In this document: one piece after another, positions 24,964 through 30,247 of the stretch
How the letters are laid out: each line of letters begins with the position of its first letter
How positions within the stretch are numbered: the stretch's first letter is position 1
Assembly (NCBI RefSeq): GCF_001677475.2
Contig: NZ_CP015229.1
Source of the DNA: Escherichia coli
GTDB lineage: Bacteria > Pseudomonadota > Gammaproteobacteria > Enterobacterales > Enterobacteriaceae
Length of the DNA: 64,000 nt
Reading direction: 5' to 3' (one strand)
The notes under the pieces: generated by a model
The model's database searches: none
The model's input: the letters and a program-made list of their open reading frames with translations, nothing else
What the model was told of the DNA's origin: nothing
Program-made: the position numbers and the translations under genes

Positions 24964-25091
24964 GATGTATCCTGAAAAATTAAAGTACGCGGCGATTGTA
25001 GGGATTGCTCATCAGATGTCCAGATCTTGATGAATTCCTATTTGTGAGCTACGTCTGGACAGTAACTTGTTACAACCTGTAGCATCCACTT

Positions 25092-25331
25092 GCCGGTCCT
25101 GTGAGTTAATAGGGAATCCAGTGCGAATCTGGAGCTGACGCGCAGCGGTAAGGAAAGGTGCGATGATCGCGTTATGCGGACACTGCCATTCGGTGGGAAG
25201 TCATCATCTCTTAGTATCTTAGATACCCCTCCAAGCCCGAAGACCTGCCGGCCAACGTCGCATCTGGTTCTCATCATCGCGTAATATTGATGAAACCTGC
25301 GGCATCCTTCTTCTATTGTGGATGCTTTACA
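25092..25331 (+). promoter_or_regulatory. Adenosylcobalamin riboswitch in the btuB 5' leader
   Basis: About 240-nt leader GCCGGTCCTGTGAGTTAATAGGGAATCCAGTGCGAATCTGGAGCTGAC.. with B12-box-like CCCGAAGACCTGCCGGCC. Confidence 0.88.
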
Positions 25332-27176
25332 ATGATTAAAAAAGCTTCGCTGCTGACGGCGTGTTCTGTCACAGCCTTTTCCGCTTGGGCACAGGATACC
25401 AGCCCGGATACTCTCGTTGTTACTGCTAACCGTTTTGAACAGCCGCGCAGCACTGTGCTTGCACCAACCACCGTTGTGACGCGTCAGGATATCGACCGCT
25501 GGCAGTCGACCTCGGTCAATGATGTGCTGCGCCGTCTCCCTGGTGTGGATATCACCCAAAACGGCGGTTCAGGTCAGCTCTCATCTATTTTTATTCGCGG
25601 TACAAATGCCAGTCATGTGTTGGTGTTAATTGATGGCGTCCGCCTGAATCTGGCGGGGGTGAGTGGTTCTGCTGACCTTAGTCAGTTCCCTATTGCGCTT
25701 GTCCAGCGTGTTGAATATATCCGTGGGCCGCGCTCCGCTGTTTATGGTTCAGATGCAATAGGCGGGGTCGTGAATATCATCACGACGCGCGATCACCCCG
25801 GAACGGAAATTTCAGCAGGGTGGGGAAGCAATAGCTATCAGAACTATGATGTCTCTACACAGCAACAACTGGGGGATAAGACACGGGTAACGCTGTTGGG
25901 CGATTATGCCCATACTCATGGTTATGATGTTGTCGCCTATGGTAATACCGGAACGCAAGCGCAGCCAGATAACGATGGTTTTTTAAGTAAAACGCTTTAT
26001 GGCGCGCTGGAGCATAATTTTACTGATGTCTGGAGCGGCTTTGTGCGCGGCTATGGCTATGATAATCGTACTAATTATGACGCATATTATTCTCCCGGCT
26101 CGCCGCTGGTCGATACACGTAAACTCTATAGCCAAAGTTGGGATGCCGGACTGCGCTATAACGGCGAACTGATTAAATCACAACTCATTACCAGCTACAG
26201 CCATAGCAAAGATTACAACTACGATCCGCATTATGGTCGTTATGATTCGTCCGCGACGCTCGATGAGATGAAACAGTACACCGTCCAGTGGGCAAACAAT
26301 GTCATCGTTGGTCACGGTAGTATTGGTGCGGGTGTCGACTGGCAGAAACAGACTACGACGCCGGGTACAGGTTATGTTGAGGATGGATATGATCAACGTA
26401 ATACCGGCATCTATCTGACCGGGCTGCAACAAGTCGGCGATTTTACCTTTGAAGGCGCAGCACGCAGCGACGATAACTCACAGTTTGGTCGTCATGGAAC
26501 CTGGCAAACCAGCGTCGGTTGGGAATTCATCGAAGGTTATCGGTTTATCGCTTCTTATGGTACGTCGTACAAGGCACCTAATCTTGGGCAACTCTACGGC
26601 TTCTACGGTAATCCGGATCTGAACCCTGAGAAAAGCAAACAGTGGGAAGGGGCGTTTGAAGGCTTAACCGCTGGAGTGAACTGGCGTATTTCCGGATACC
26701 GTAACGATGTTAGTGACTTGATCGATTACGATGATCACACCCTCAAATACTACAATGAAGGGAAAGCGCGAATTAAGGGCGTCGAGGCGACCGCCAATTT
26801 TGATACCGGACCGCTGACGCATACGGTGAGTTATGATTATGTCGATGCGCGTAACGCGATTACCGACACGCCGTTGCTACGTCGCGCTAAACAGCAGGTG
26901 AAATATCAGCTCGACTGGCAACTGTATGACTTCGACTGGGGTATTACTTATCAGTATTTAGGCACTCGCTATGATAAGGATTACTCATCTTATCCTTATC
27001 AAACCGTTAAAATGGGCGGTGTGAGCTTGTGGGATCTTGCGGTTGCGTATCCGGTCACCTCTCACCTGACAGTTCGTGGTAAAATAGCCAACCTGTTCGA
27101 CAAAGATTATGAGACAGTCTATGGCTACCAAACTGCAGGACGGGAATACACCTTGTCTGGCAGCTACACCTTCTGA
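25332..27176 (+). CDS. btuB: TonB-dependent outer-membrane vitamin B12 receptor
   Basis: ORF-track 25287..27176 trimmed to Met at 25332 ([35 protein letters not shown]..), 614 aa; TonB box; C-terminal aromatic residue. Confidence 0.95.
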
Positions 27177-27978
27177 ACCACGTCCCACCGTGCTGGTGTT
27201 TGACTCCGGCGTCGGTGGGTTGTCGGTCTATGACGAGATCCGGCATCTCTTACCGGATCTCCATTACATTTATGCTTTCGATAACGTCGCTTTCCCGTAT
27301 GGCGAAAAAAGCGAAGAGTTTATTGTTGAGCGAGTGGTGGCAATTGTCACCGCGGTGCAAGAACGTTATCCCCTTGCGCTGGCTGTGGTCGCTTGCAACA
27401 CTGCCAGTACCGTTTCACTTCCTGCATTACGCGAAAAGTTCGACTTCCCGGTTGTTGGTGTCGTGCCGGCGATTAAACCTGCTGCACGTCTGACGGCAAA
27501 TGGCATTGTCGGATTACTGGCAACCCGCGGAACAGTTAAACGTTCTTATACTCATGAGCTGATCGCGCGTTTCGCTAATGAATGCCAGATAGAAATGCTG
27601 GGCTCGGCAGAGATGGTTGAGTTGGCTGAAGCGAAGCTGCATGGCGAAGATGTTTCTCTGGATGCACTAAAACGTATCCTACGCCCGTGGTTAAGAATGA
27701 AAGAGCCGCCAGATACCGTTGTATTGGGTTGCACCCATTTCCCTCTACTACAAGAAGAACTGTTACAAGTGCTGCCAGAGGGAACCCGGCTGGTGGATTC
27801 TGGCGCAGCGATTGCTCGCCGAACGGCTTGGTTGTTAGAACATGAAGCCCCGGATGCAAAATCTGCCGATGCGAATATTGCCTTTTGTATGGCAATGACG
27901 CCAGAAGCTGAACAATTATTGCCCGTTTTACAGCGTTACGGCTTCGAAACGCTCGAAAAACTGGCAGTTTTAGGCTGA
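27121..27978 (+). CDS. murI: Glutamate racemase
   Basis: ORF-track 27109..27978 trimmed to ATG 27121 ([16 protein letters not shown]..), 285 aa; overlaps btuB 3' end by 56 bp. Confidence 0.93.
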
Positions 27979-28023
27979 TTTGGTTGAATGTTGCGCGGTC
28001 AGAAAATTATTTTAAATTTCCTC

Positions 28024-28060
28024 TTGTCAGGCCGGAATAACTCCCTATAATGCGCCACCA
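28024..28060 (+). promoter_or_regulatory. rrnB P1 promoter
   Basis: -35 TTGTCA (28024-28029), 16-bp spacer, -10 TATAAT (28046-28051), GC-rich discriminator; AT-rich UP element 27990-28020. Confidence 0.9.
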
Positions 28061-28142
28061 CTGACACGGAACAACGGCAAACACGCCGCCGGGTCAGCGG
28101 GGTTCTCCTGAGAATTCCGGCAGAGAAAGCAAAAATAAATGC

Positions 28143-28178
28143 TTGACTCTGTAGCGGGAAAGCGTATTATGCACACCC
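28143..28178 (+). promoter_or_regulatory. rrnB P2 promoter
   Basis: -35 TTGACT (28143-28148), 16-bp spacer, -10 TATTAT (28165-28170). Confidence 0.88.
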
Positions 28179-28209
28179 CGCGCCGCTGAGAAAAAGCGAA
28201 GCGGCACTG

Positions 28210-28221
28210 CTCTTTAACAAT
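28210..28221 (+). promoter_or_regulatory. boxA antitermination element of the rrn leader
   Basis: TGCTCTTTAACAA motif in the leader. Confidence 0.8.
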
Positions 28222-28351
28222 TTATCAGACAATCTGTGTGGGCACTCGAAGATACGGATTCTTAACGTCGCAAGACGAAAAATGAATACCAAGTCTCAAG
28301 AGTGAACACGTAATTCATTACGAAGTTTAATTCTTTGAGCATCAAACTTTT

Positions 28352-29893
<1,542 letters not shown>

Positions 29894-30054: not shown

Positions 30055-30247
30055 CTTGCTGGTTTGTGAGTGAAAGTCACCTGCCTTAATATCTCAAAAC
30101 TCATCTTCGGGTGACGTTTGAGATATTTGCTCTTTAAAAATCTGGATCAAGCTGAAAATTGAAACACTGAACAACGAAAGTTGTTCGTGAGTCTCTCAAA
30201 TTTTCGCAACACGATGATGAATCGAAAGAAACATCTTCGGGTTGTGA

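What the first reader, a model, noticed from the sequence alone, without database searches (positions are those of the whole stretch)
27109..28060. Dense overlap of btuB 3' end, murI and the rrnB P1 upstream region
murI begins 56 bp before the btuB stop in a different frame, and the rrnB P1 UP element and upstream activator region begin immediately after (and probably within) the murI 3' end. This is a compact stretch where one DNA segment serves three functions and constraint on synonymous sites should be unusually strong.
Basis: partly seen in the sequence, partly recalled or inferred. Interest (0 to 1): 0.25.

Follow-up and report, generated by a model that had tools for sequence, protein, structure and literature searches.

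The report
btuB–murI overlap beside rrnB promoter
This is the already well-known place in E. coli where the end of the vitamin-B12 receptor gene overlaps the start of the essential glutamate racemase gene, whose own end carries activator sites for a ribosomal-RNA promoter; comparing 79 species shows 'silent' sites are almost frozen at the first overlap but only mildly constrained at the second.

Summary
The anatomy is real and already known. btuB (25332-27176) and murI (27121-27978, +1 frame) overlap by 56 nt. rrnB P1 fires at 28060. Published Fis sites III and II lie inside murI; site I starts 4 nt after its stop.

The conserved, RefSeq-annotated start is 27121.

I ran the proposed test on 79 Enterobacteriaceae sequences.
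- Overlap: third-position change is 9% (btuB frame) and 4% (murI frame) of expectation, and rises again right after the btuB stop.
- murI 3' end: change is about 70% of expectation. Constraint is concentrated on Fis anchor bases: G27951, 65/66; A27957, 66/66; C27924, 58/66.
- No single base serves all three functions. These are two separate dual-use zones about 730 bp apart.

One extra result: constraint extends about 80 nt upstream of the murI ATG inside btuB. There ACAGTTCGTGGTAAAAT (27069-27085) is essentially invariant. I read it as a candidate B12-independent extended -10 promoter plus ribosome-binding region for murI. This is inferred; I found no mapped transcription start.

Low interest.

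The parts
25077..25266 (+). Cobalamin riboswitch in the btuB leader. Context: it makes btuB expression B12-repressible.
   Evidence: Rfam RF00174, 86 bits against a gathering score of 31.5. Annotated as a riboswitch in RefSeq.
25332..27176 (+). btuB coding sequence (614 aa), TonB-dependent vitamin B12 receptor.
   Evidence: NCBIfam NF007926, 1110 bits against a cut-off of 836. RefSeq annotation.
27042..27258 (+). Valley of synonymous-site constraint. It spans the last ~45 codons of btuB and the first ~45 codons of murI.
   Evidence: Sliding obs/exp third-position steps are 0.0-0.6 here and about 0.85-1.2 elsewhere in both genes.
27069..27085 (+). Essentially invariant block ACAGTTCGTGGTAAAAT inside btuB. 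It contains the candidate extended -10 promoter for murI: TG at 27077-27078 and TAAAAT at 27080-27085. Inferred, not shown.
   Evidence: Third positions 27074, 27077, 27080 and 27083 have 0 steps in 79 species, where 28, 24, 27 and 14.5 are expected. A 67%-identity relative has TGGTAGAAT. The motif alone is at chance frequency.
27090..27120 (+). Inferred murI 5' untranslated and ribosome-binding region embedded in btuB codons. The SD-like GAGA is at 27111-27114.
   Evidence: Third positions are mostly 0-2 steps, against 14-18 expected. Over 27042-27120, 11 of 22 conserved codons have <=1 step, against 1 of 268 in the background.
27109..27111 (+). It is not the murI start.
   Evidence: T27110 is present in 2 of 79 sequences and C in 77. 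RefSeq starts murI 12 nt downstream.
27121..27176 (+). btuB/murI overlap, 56 nt. murI codons 1-18 are in the +1 frame over the last 18 btuB codons plus the stop.
   Evidence: The overlap length is identical in 80 species and in a 67%-identity relative. Third-position obs/exp is 0.09 (btuB) and 0.04 (murI).
27121..27978 (+). murI coding sequence (285 aa), glutamate racemase. Residues 1 to about 23 are a lineage-specific N-terminal extension outside the conserved racemase fold.
   Evidence: NCBIfam NF002034, 516 bits against a cut-off of 408; the model starts at residue 28 of the 289-aa ORF, which is residue 24 of the 285-aa protein. The sequence differs from PDB 2JFN at 2 of 285 residues, and other racemases align only from about residue 24.
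27910..27924 (.). Fis site III (centre -143), GAACAATTATTGCCC, inside murI codons.
   Evidence: Perfect match to the consensus. The centre equals the published -143. G27910 is conserved 66/66. C27924, a four-fold third position, is 58/66, with 5 steps against about 22 expected.
27951..27965 (.). Fis site II (centre -102), GCTCGAAAAACTGGC, inside murI codons.
   Evidence: One mismatch to the consensus. The centre equals the published -102. G27951, a four-fold third position, is 65/66, with 1 step against 21 expected. A27957 is 66/66 and C27965 is 63/66.
27982..27996 (.). Fis site I (centre -71), GGTTGAATGTTGCGC, starting 4 nt after the murI stop. In 4 species it lies inside a longer murI.
   Evidence: One mismatch to the consensus. 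The centre equals the published -71. G27982 and C27996 are invariant 66/66 while the interior varies. In 4 species the murI stop is at -60.
28001..28022 (+). rrnB P1 UP element (-59 to -38).
   Evidence: A+T-rich AGAAAATTATTTTAAATTTCCT. The boundaries are from established knowledge (Ross et al. 1993). The T-tract 28010-28012 and A28015-28016 are near-invariant.
28024..28060 (+). rrnB P1 core promoter: -35 TTGTCA (28024-28029), -10 TATAAT (28046-28051), GC-rich discriminator, +1 at 28060.
   Evidence: Promoter scan gives 11/12. The -35, the -10 and 7 of 8 discriminator bases are invariant in 66 species.
28143..28170 (+). rrnB P2 promoter.
   Evidence: Promoter scan gives 10/12: TTGACT, 16-nt spacer, TATTAT.
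28352..29893 (+). 16S rRNA gene of the rrnB-type operon (16S, tRNA-Glu, 23S, 5S).
   Evidence: Rfam RF00177, 1577 bits. The tRNA, 23S and 5S follow downstream. RefSeq annotation.

Best explanation
Two independent dual-use DNA zones flank murI.

Zone A is the btuB 3' end (about 27042-27176). Superimposed on the codons for BtuB's C-terminal beta-strand, it carries the signals that start murI: the ATG at 27121 and the first 18 murI codons in the +1 frame (shown), a ribosome-binding region with an SD-like GAGA (inferred), and probably an extended -10 promoter, TGGTAAAAT at 27077-27085 (inferred). Such a promoter would let the essential murI be transcribed when the B12 riboswitch shuts btuB down. 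In the +1 arrangement every btuB third position is a murI second position, and every murI third position is a btuB first position. No site is silent in both frames, and both peptides are under purifying selection, so substitution nearly stops.

Zone B is the murI 3' end plus the 80 nt after it. It is the rrnB P1 upstream activating region. Fis sites III and II lie within murI codons, site I lies just after the stop, and the UP element and core promoter follow. Fis tolerates most sequences as long as the G and C at positions -7 and +7 and an A/T-rich centre are kept. It therefore imposes only a light, base-specific constraint on murI synonymous sites. The fixed requirement is spacing: the region is essentially free of indels, while the murI stop codon slides between -90 and -60 relative to the promoter.
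For: Anatomy and identity.

Overlap conservation. The overlap is 56 nt in all 80 species loci and in a 67%-identity relative.

Substitution counts (Fitch steps on a 79-sequence tree).
- Gene-wide third positions average about 17.8 steps per site. In the overlap, btuB third positions average 1.6 per site and murI third positions 0.8 per site.
- Normalised by amino acid, the ratios are 0.09 and 0.04.
- murI third positions jump to 13, 14 and 14 steps immediately after the btuB stop.
- btuB third positions in the overlap (1.6 per site) change at about the rate of murI second positions elsewhere (1.28). So the MurI extension is itself constrained.

Upstream of the ATG. 11 of 22 conserved codons have <=1 step, against 1 of 268 in the background, Fisher P=3e-13. 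Bases 27069-27085 are essentially invariant, and TG plus TAnAAT is retained in the distant locus L082.

Need for independent murI expression.
- A riboswitch precedes btuB.
- Term-seq shows premature 3' ends at the riboswitch and at btuB +40 (PMC7815308 supplement).
- btuB tolerates transposon insertions while murI does not (PMC9598634).
- A deletion of the first ~1000 bp of btuB is viable, and insertions within the overlap are about 10:1 orientation-biased (bioRxiv 10.1101/2025.12.01.691526).

Zone B.
- The three motif hits coincide with the published Fis centres.
- The +-7 G/C bases are conserved 58-66 of 66, including two four-fold synonymous sites.
- The last 26 murI codons have a ratio of 0.70, P=0.0055, and Mann-Whitney P about 0.001.
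- The core promoter is invariant and the region is almost free of indels in 66 species.
- The stop codon lies at -90, -87, -84 or -60.
Against: The promoter is not demonstrated.
- TGNTANAAT occurs at chance frequency in the window (6 found, 6.4 expected).
- There is no recognisable -35.
- The generic promoter scan did not call it.
- No mapped transcription start for murI was found in five supplementary data sets or in the literature search.
- Published work treats btuB-murI as one operon. A btuB promoter mutation raised the btuB-murI transcript about 300-fold (PMC10802341).

Other limits.
- In the overlap, protein-level selection on the MurI N-terminus cannot be separated from RNA-level selection on the translation-initiation region. 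Transposon insertions in the overlap are tolerated under phage selection, so the extension is not strictly essential.
- At the 3' end, third positions inside the Fis cores (0.69) are not clearly lower than those outside (0.84), with n=9 each.
- Parsimony counts saturate at fast sites, and the tree was built from the same two genes.
Confidence: 0.85

Rival explanations
1. The constraint upstream of the murI ATG (27042-27120) is not a promoter. It reflects only the murI translation-initiation region on a btuB-murI polycistronic mRNA (ribosome standby, coupling, structure avoidance), or another RNA-level signal such as an sRNA or RNase site.
For: btuB and murI are described as one operon, and a btuB promoter mutation raises the joint transcript about 300-fold. 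The extended -10 motif is at chance frequency and lacks a -35. No transcription start was found. The 5' ends of enterobacterial genes generally show reduced synonymous change, and btuB's own first 15 codons have a ratio of 0.29.
Against: The most invariant block (27069-27085) lies 36-52 nt upstream of the ATG. It is separated from the ribosome-binding region by relaxed sites (27086, 11 steps; 27089, 15 steps). That pattern fits a -10 element, discriminator and transcribed region better than one continuous ribosome-binding site. The RNA 27086-27185 folds no better than shuffled sequence (z=-0.4). No Rfam family matches. murI is essential while btuB is riboswitch-repressed and prematurely terminated. 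Insertions throughout btuB are tolerated.
Confidence: 0.4
2. The near-absence of change in the overlap is driven only by BtuB's C-terminal outer-membrane-protein signature and the need to keep the murI ATG. On this view the MurI N-terminal peptide has no function of its own.
For: The extension lies outside the conserved racemase fold. Transposon insertions in the overlap can be tolerated, which suggests a truncated MurI works. The BtuB C-terminus ...YTLSGSYTF is nearly invariant.
Against: btuB third positions are free as far as BtuB is concerned. Yet they change at 1.6 steps per site against about 17.7 gene-wide (ratio 0.09). That is close to the rate of murI second positions elsewhere (1.28). 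Something read in the murI frame, or at RNA level, constrains them. The extension motif MA..QD.NT is still recognisable at 67% overall identity.
Confidence: 0.15
3. The mild constraint at the murI 3' end has nothing to do with Fis. It reflects codon preference, a generic gene-end effect or chance.
For: The overall effect is small (0.70). Inside and outside the Fis cores the values are 0.69 and 0.84 with n=9 each. The Fis consensus is so degenerate that hits occur at chance frequency window-wide. There is no independent control for gene 3' ends in this data set.
Against: The lowest third positions are exactly the high-information Fis positions. G27951 (-7 of site II) has 1 step against 21 expected. 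A27957 (centre) has 0 against 13. C27924 (+7 of site III) has 5-6 against 22. The motif hits coincide to the base with the footprinted centres -71, -102 and -143. Spacing to the core promoter is held without indels while the stop codon moves.
Confidence: 0.12
4. A conserved antisense protein-coding gene (the - strand ORFs 27246-27055 or 27188-26985) causes the valley.
For: The 63-aa antisense ORF 27055-27246 has boundaries that nearly match the valley.
Against: The frames are open in only 37 of 79 and 36 of 79 species. The start codon is ATG in only 36 of 79.
Confidence: 0.01

Closest known systems
The btuB-murI overlap of E. coli K-12
   Same: It is the same locus. [quoted passage not shown] It is the reason btuB is missing from the Keio collection. 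MurI here differs from PDB 2JFN at 2 of 285 residues.
   Different: Nothing structural differs. This strain has an extra, non-conserved in-frame ATG at 27109. New here are the cross-species quantification and the constrained block upstream of the ATG.
rrnB P1 upstream activating region (UP element plus Fis sites I-III; Ross et al. 1990, 1993)
   Same: The core promoter, UP element and three Fis sites centred at -71, -102 and -143 are present at exactly the published positions.
   Different: Nothing differs. That sites II and III fall inside murI follows directly from the annotation. New here is that their +-7 anchor bases leave a footprint on murI synonymous sites, and that the murI stop slides between -90 and -60 among genera.
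Reduced synonymous substitution at the start of enterobacterial genes (Eyre-Walker and Bulmer 1993; from my own knowledge)
   Same: murI codons 19-45 (obs/exp about 0.4) and btuB codons 1-15 (0.29) show the expected dip at the 5' end.
   Different: The dip around the murI start is deeper (0.0-0.2). It also extends about 80 nt upstream into another gene's codons, which the generic effect does not predict.
Internal promoters embedded in upstream coding sequence, such as the ftsQ/ftsA/ftsZ promoters in the dcw cluster (from my own knowledge)
   Same: If the 27077-27085 element is a promoter, an essential cell-wall gene would be served by a promoter lying inside the preceding gene's codons, as in the dcw cluster.
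   Different: It is not demonstrated here. It would be an extended -10 type without a -35, and it would additionally bypass a riboswitch.

Membership tests
Out-of-frame overlapping gene pair (btuB-murI) | Both ORFs encode recognised protein families | tested here: met
   NF007926 scores 1110 bits against a cut-off of 836. NF002034 scores 516 bits against a cut-off of 408.
Out-of-frame overlapping gene pair (btuB-murI) | The coding sequences share nucleotides in different frames | tested here: met
   The shared stretch is 27121-27176 (56 nt), with murI in btuB's +1 frame.
Out-of-frame overlapping gene pair (btuB-murI) | The overlap and the downstream start codon are conserved across species | tested here: met
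   The ATG at 27121 is present in 79 of 79 sequences. The overlap is 56 nt in 80 of 80 species loci, and also in a 67%-identity relative.
Out-of-frame overlapping gene pair (btuB-murI) | Both frames are translated through the overlap | not testable with these tools
   Only literature is available: Ribo-seq tools call both ORFs as translated (PMC8921622). The solved E. coli MurI chain is 285 aa and starts MATKLQ.
rrnB P1 promoter with UP element and Fis-dependent upstream activating region | -35 TTGTCA, 16-bp spacer, -10 TATAAT, GC-rich discriminator | tested here: met
   The scan gives 11/12. These elements are invariant in 66 species.
rrnB P1 promoter with UP element and Fis-dependent upstream activating region | A+T-rich UP element at about -59 to -38 | tested here: met
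   AGAAAATTATTTTAAATTTCCT lies at 28001-28022 and is partly conserved. The element's boundaries come from established knowledge.
rrnB P1 promoter with UP element and Fis-dependent upstream activating region | Fis sites centred at -71, -102 and -143 | tested here: met
   Consensus hits are centred at 27989, 27958 and 27917, which equal -71, -102 and -143. These match the published centres.
rrnB P1 promoter with UP element and Fis-dependent upstream activating region | Fis actually binds and activates | not testable with these tools
   Literature only (Ross et al. 1990, cited).
Sigma-70 extended -10 promoter (proposed for murI) | TGn immediately upstream of a TAnnnT -10 hexamer | tested here: met
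   TGGTAAAAT lies at 27077-27085. The distant locus L082 has TGGTAGAAT.
Sigma-70 extended -10 promoter (proposed for murI) | The motif is more than chance would give | tested here: not met
   There are 6 matches in the window against 6.4 expected. Only the conservation at synonymous sites is unusual.
Sigma-70 extended -10 promoter (proposed for murI) | A mapped transcription start 5-9 nt downstream | tested here: inconclusive
   No entry for murI was found in the supplementary tables that could be searched. The primary murI paper is not held.

The most novel reading that the evidence does not exclude
The invariant block inside btuB (27069-27085, TGGTAAAAT) would be a dedicated, riboswitch-independent promoter for the essential murI, conserved across Enterobacterales. 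The MurI N-terminal extension (residues 1 to about 23) would have arisen by overprinting on the BtuB C-terminal codons and is now under its own purifying selection. The last ~130 nt of btuB would then encode a beta-strand, a promoter, a ribosome-binding site and part of a second protein all at once.
Probability: 0.4. Interest if true: 0.35.

Novelty: already known. Interest (0 to 1): 0.2.

Why it matters
The locus is textbook material, so the main value is as a calibration.

The practical lessons are these.
- 'Silent' recoding of the last ~130 nt of btuB, or of the Fis anchor bases in the last ~70 nt of murI, is unlikely to be neutral. This matters for genome recoding, for btuB knock-out design (the gene is absent from the Keio collection for this reason) and for phage-receptor engineering.
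- If the embedded promoter is real, it explains how an essential cell-wall gene escapes vitamin-B12 repression of the gene it overlaps.

Tried and rejected
- Antisense ORFs. The two - strand ORFs under the valley are broken in more than half of the species. Rejected.
- RNA structure. RNA 27086-27185 folds no better than shuffled sequence (z=-0.4). Rejected.
- Known RNA families. An Rfam E-value scan of 26900-28100 gave only a sub-threshold Ysr197 hit on the rrn promoter and leader.
- Window-wide motif scans. The Fis consensus (114 hits against about 130 expected) and TGNTANAAT (6 against 6.4) are both at chance, so motif presence alone is no evidence.
- Generic promoter scan. It found P1 and P2 but nothing upstream of murI.
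- Search for a mapped murI transcription start. Supplements of PMC10301672, PMC7815308, PMC12083536, PMC4681348 and PMC10794520 had no murI entry. PMC4161252 has no supplementary text held.
- Literature access. The primary papers Doublet et al. 1993 (PMC204615) and Fisher 2008 (PMC3815242) are not held. The first literature search was swamped by 'murine'.
- Distant relatives. The word-based homologue search returned only close Enterobacteriaceae. P0125 is not on record for context.
- btuB 5' end as a control for the generic 5'-end effect. It is imperfect, because that region is under riboswitch control.
Full report
WHAT IS THERE. The window around 25000-28500 is the trmA / btuB / murI / rrnB region of an Escherichia coli genome. 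The 1.1-kb query 27000-28100 matches 5425 of 5426 complete E. coli genomes at 98-99.8% identity, annotated as btuB and murI. RefSeq annotates the order as cobalamin riboswitch, btuB, murI, 16S rRNA, tRNA-Glu, 23S. Rfam finds the cobalamin riboswitch at 25077-25266 and the rRNA operon from 28352. NCBIfam equivalog models are passed by both proteins: BtuB NF007926 at 1110 bits against a cut-off of 836, and MurI NF002034 at 516 bits against 408.

THE OBSERVATION. btuB runs from 25332 to 27176, with its stop TGA at 27174-27176. murI runs from 27121 to 27978. The two share 27121-27176, which is 56 nt, with murI in the +1 frame of btuB. The finding's start coordinate, 27109, is a different in-frame ATG 12 nt further upstream, the mechanical 289-aa ORF. 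That ATG exists only because this strain has TAT rather than TAC for a BtuB tyrosine: T27110 is found in 2 of 79 sequences and C in 77. RefSeq starts murI at the position equivalent to 27121. The solved E. coli MurI chain 2JFN is 285 aa and begins MATKLQ. So '56 bp' is right and '27109' is not the gene start.

At the other end, the promoter scan finds rrnB P1 (TTGTCA 28024-28029, TATAAT 28046-28051, 11/12) and P2 (28143-28170). With the transcription start at 28060, the published centres of Fis sites I-III are -71, -102 and -143 (PMC2885671). They fall exactly on three matches to the Fis consensus GNNYRWWWWWYRNNC at 27982-27996, 27951-27965 and 27910-27924. The murI stop is at -84 to -82. Sites II and III are therefore inside murI, site I begins 4 nt after the stop, and the UP element (28001-28022) begins 23 nt after it. 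The consensus is too loose to mean anything window-wide (114 hits against about 130 expected). However, three or four hits within about 110 nt has a Poisson probability of about 1e-3 or 5e-5.

A scan of one genome per species returned 80 Enterobacteriaceae loci carrying murI with flanks. These include Escherichia, Salmonella, Citrobacter, Enterobacter, Klebsiella, Raoultella, Kosakonia, Kluyvera, Cedecea and Franconibacter. All 80 have a 56-nt overlap and an ATG at the murI start. I built codon alignments of murI and of the last 400 codons of btuB for 79 sequences. Two loci with an interrupted btuB were dropped. I then made a neighbour-joining tree from the parts of both genes outside the regions under test and counted Fitch parsimony steps per site.

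Gene-wide, third codon positions average 17.8 steps in both genes. First and second positions average 3.0 and 1.3 in murI, and 4.1 and 2.5 in btuB. Inside the overlap, btuB third positions, which are murI second positions, average 1.6 steps. murI third positions, which are btuB first positions, average 0.8. I restricted the analysis to codons whose amino acid is at least 90% conserved and normalised by the same amino acid elsewhere. Observed over expected is then 27/305 = 0.09 for btuB and 12/275 = 0.04 for murI, with none of 20,000 resamplings as low. Immediately after the btuB stop, murI third positions return to 13, 14, 14, 9, 7 and 13 steps. The outcome that would have refuted the finding, ordinary synonymous divergence in the overlap, is clearly not seen.

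This result was not inevitable. The part of MurI encoded inside btuB lies outside the conserved racemase fold. The family model, and racemases of other bacteria in the PDB, align only from about residue 24. If that peptide were unconstrained, btuB third positions would evolve freely. Instead they change at about the rate of murI second positions elsewhere (1.6 against 1.28). So something read in the murI frame, or at RNA level, is under selection, in addition to the nearly invariant BtuB C-terminus ...YTLSGSYTF.

At the murI 3' end the effect is much weaker. The last 26 codons give 175/250 = 0.70 (P=0.0055; Mann-Whitney P about 0.001). The low sites are the informative Fis positions.
- G27951 is the -7 base of site II and a four-fold-degenerate third position. 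It is G in 65 of 66 species, with 1 step against 21 expected.
- A27957, in the centre of site II, is A in 66 of 66, with 0 steps against 13 expected.
- C27924 is the +7 base of site III and also four-fold degenerate. It is C in 58 of 66, with 5-6 steps against 22 expected.
- The +-7 bases of site I (G27982, C27996) are invariant while its interior varies freely.

Averaged over the cores, third positions inside sites II and III (0.69) are not clearly lower than neighbouring ones (0.84), with n=9 each. The prediction of 'unusually strong' constraint therefore does not hold here. The constraint is light and base-specific, as expected for a protein with a very degenerate site.

What is held rigidly is geometry. 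From 27898 to 28078 the 66-species alignment has no indels, apart from a single base in some Citrobacter. The -35, the -10 and 7 of 8 discriminator bases are invariant. The murI stop codon, by contrast, slides on this scaffold: -90 in 49 species, -87 in 2, -84 in 11 (including this window) and -60 in 4. In those last 4 species murI reads through Fis site I up to the edge of the UP element.

BEYOND THE FINDING. The sliding profile shows that the valley of synonymous constraint is wider than the overlap, running from about 27042 to 27258. Elsewhere in both genes the ratio stays within about 0.85-1.2.

Downstream, murI codons 19-45 sit at about 0.4. This resembles the general reduction at the 5' ends of enterobacterial genes (Eyre-Walker and Bulmer 1993, from my own knowledge). 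btuB's own first 15 codons show 0.29, although that region is also part of the riboswitch-controlled initiation region.

Upstream, inside btuB only, 11 of 22 conserved codons have at most one step at the third position. The background figure is 1 of 268 (Fisher P=3e-13). The block ACAGTTCGTGGTAAAAT (27069-27085) is essentially invariant in 79 species. It includes the third positions 27074, 27077, 27080 and 27083, where 28, 24, 27 and 14.5 steps are expected. It is followed by two relaxed third positions (27086 with 11 steps, 27089 with 15). After that comes a nearly frozen stretch, AACCTGTTCGAYAAAGATTAYGAGACAG, up to the ATG.

The block reads as an extended -10 promoter, TG-n-TAAAAT. The relaxed sites would be its discriminator, and the frozen stretch would be a roughly 30-nt leader with an SD-like GAGA at 27111-27114. 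A metagenomic relative with only 67% MurI identity keeps trmA-btuB-murI, the 56-nt overlap, TGGTAGAAT, GAGA and the ATG. It also keeps an rrn P1 with Fis-like G...C anchors after murI.

A separate murI promoter makes biological sense for four reasons.
- btuB is controlled by the riboswitch, and Term-seq shows premature 3' ends at the riboswitch and at btuB +40.
- murI is essential, while btuB tolerates transposon insertions.
- A deletion of the first ~1000 bp of btuB is viable.
- Insertions within the overlap, which would lie downstream of the proposed promoter, are about 10:1 orientation-biased.

This remains an inference. The motif is at chance frequency (6 found, 6.4 expected). There is no -35, and the generic scan did not call it. 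I found no mapped transcription start. The genes are treated as one operon, and a btuB promoter mutation raises their joint transcript about 300-fold. I put the promoter reading at about 0.4-0.45. The main alternative is that the whole stretch is an extended translation-initiation signal on the polycistronic mRNA.

RIVALS EXCLUDED. The two antisense ORFs under the valley are open in only 37 and 36 of 79 species. The RNA around the start folds no better than shuffled sequence (z=-0.4). No Rfam family matches. A locally young genealogy cannot explain a pattern in which fully relaxed sites (27065 with 25 steps, 27068 with 16, 27089 with 15) sit between frozen ones.

ORIGIN OF THE OVERLAP. This evidence is thin. 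Two relatives at about 50% identity that are not next to btuB have little or no N-terminal extension: P0133 begins MAKVVIFDSGVGG, and P0132 has about 12 residues before the core motif. The 67% relative next to btuB has the extension. This fits an origin of the extension by overprinting on the btuB 3' end, but it rests on four loci only.

COMPARISON WITH WHAT IS KNOWN, AND NOVELTY. The overlap is called 'well-characterized' in the literature and is the stated reason btuB is absent from the Keio collection. The Fis sites at -71, -102 and -143 have been known since 1990. That an out-of-frame overlap freezes silent sites follows from the genetic code plus purifying selection on both products. The finding is therefore already known. 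This analysis adds a quantified confirmation, a corrected start coordinate, the light Fis footprint on murI silent sites, the sliding stop codon, and a candidate embedded murI promoter that needs an experiment.

LIMITS.
- Parsimony under-counts change at saturated sites, which makes the ratios conservative.
- The tree comes from the same two genes.
- All 79 sequences are Enterobacteriaceae.
- Expectations are drawn from only about 270 background codons.
- The Fis consensus and the UP-element boundaries are taken from my knowledge of the field, not from a tool.

Noticed in passing
window 27109-27111: An extra in-frame ATG upstream of the murI start. It is created by a synonymous TAC-to-TAT change in btuB and is present in only 2 of 79 sequences (this window and L004). 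It makes the mechanical ORF 289 aa instead of 285.
   Followed up: yes
window 27970-28002; loci L025, L026, L030, L046, L058, L070: The murI stop codon slides on a fixed promoter scaffold: -90, -87, -84 or -60 relative to rrn P1 +1. In the 293-aa variants (Silvania, a Leclercia MAG, Entomohabitans, Cedecea and 'Escherichia sp. ESNIH1') murI reads through Fis site I to the edge of the UP element.
   Followed up: partly
window 27048-27059: A second patch of conserved third positions inside btuB, TATCC..TCACC (T27050 79/79, C27056 68/79, C27059 73/79). It lies about 20-30 nt upstream of the candidate -10 and does not resemble a -35. It has no assignment.
   Followed up: no
window 25332-25376: The first 15 codons of btuB also show low synonymous change (obs/exp 0.29). 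This is consistent with the riboswitch-controlled initiation region reaching into the coding sequence.
   Followed up: partly
window ~27974; about 9 Citrobacter loci (e.g. L008, L034, L040, L044): A single-base deletion between Fis sites II and I. It is the only indel in the 66-species alignment of 27898-28078, and it changes the II-I spacing by 1 bp.
   Followed up: no
L043 (CACSKA010000012.1): The record is titled Chryseobacterium sp. 18061 but carries an Enterobacteriaceae btuB-murI-rrn locus almost identical to L037 (Citrobacter sp. 18056). This is probably a mislabelled or contaminated assembly.
   Followed up: no
L042 (Intestinirhabdus alba) and L072 (Citrobacter amalonaticus AUH_CA_2023_1): The btuB reading frame is interrupted (open for fewer than 400 codons before the stop) while murI and the overlap are intact. 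This could be a pseudogene or an assembly error. Both loci were excluded from the rate analysis.
   Followed up: no
window 30132-30240 and 27977-28100: Rfam StyR-44 matches the 16S-23S spacer just before the 23S gene (125 bits). A far sub-threshold Ysr197 hit (21 bits against 167) covers the rrn promoter and leader. Both families appear to describe pieces of rRNA operons.
   Followed up: no
window 27190-27198: In-frame GTG codons (Val24, Val26) sit exactly where the conserved racemase core begins. They are plausible alternative starts that could explain why transposon insertions in the overlap are tolerated (bioRxiv 10.1101/2025.12.01.691526).
   Followed up: no
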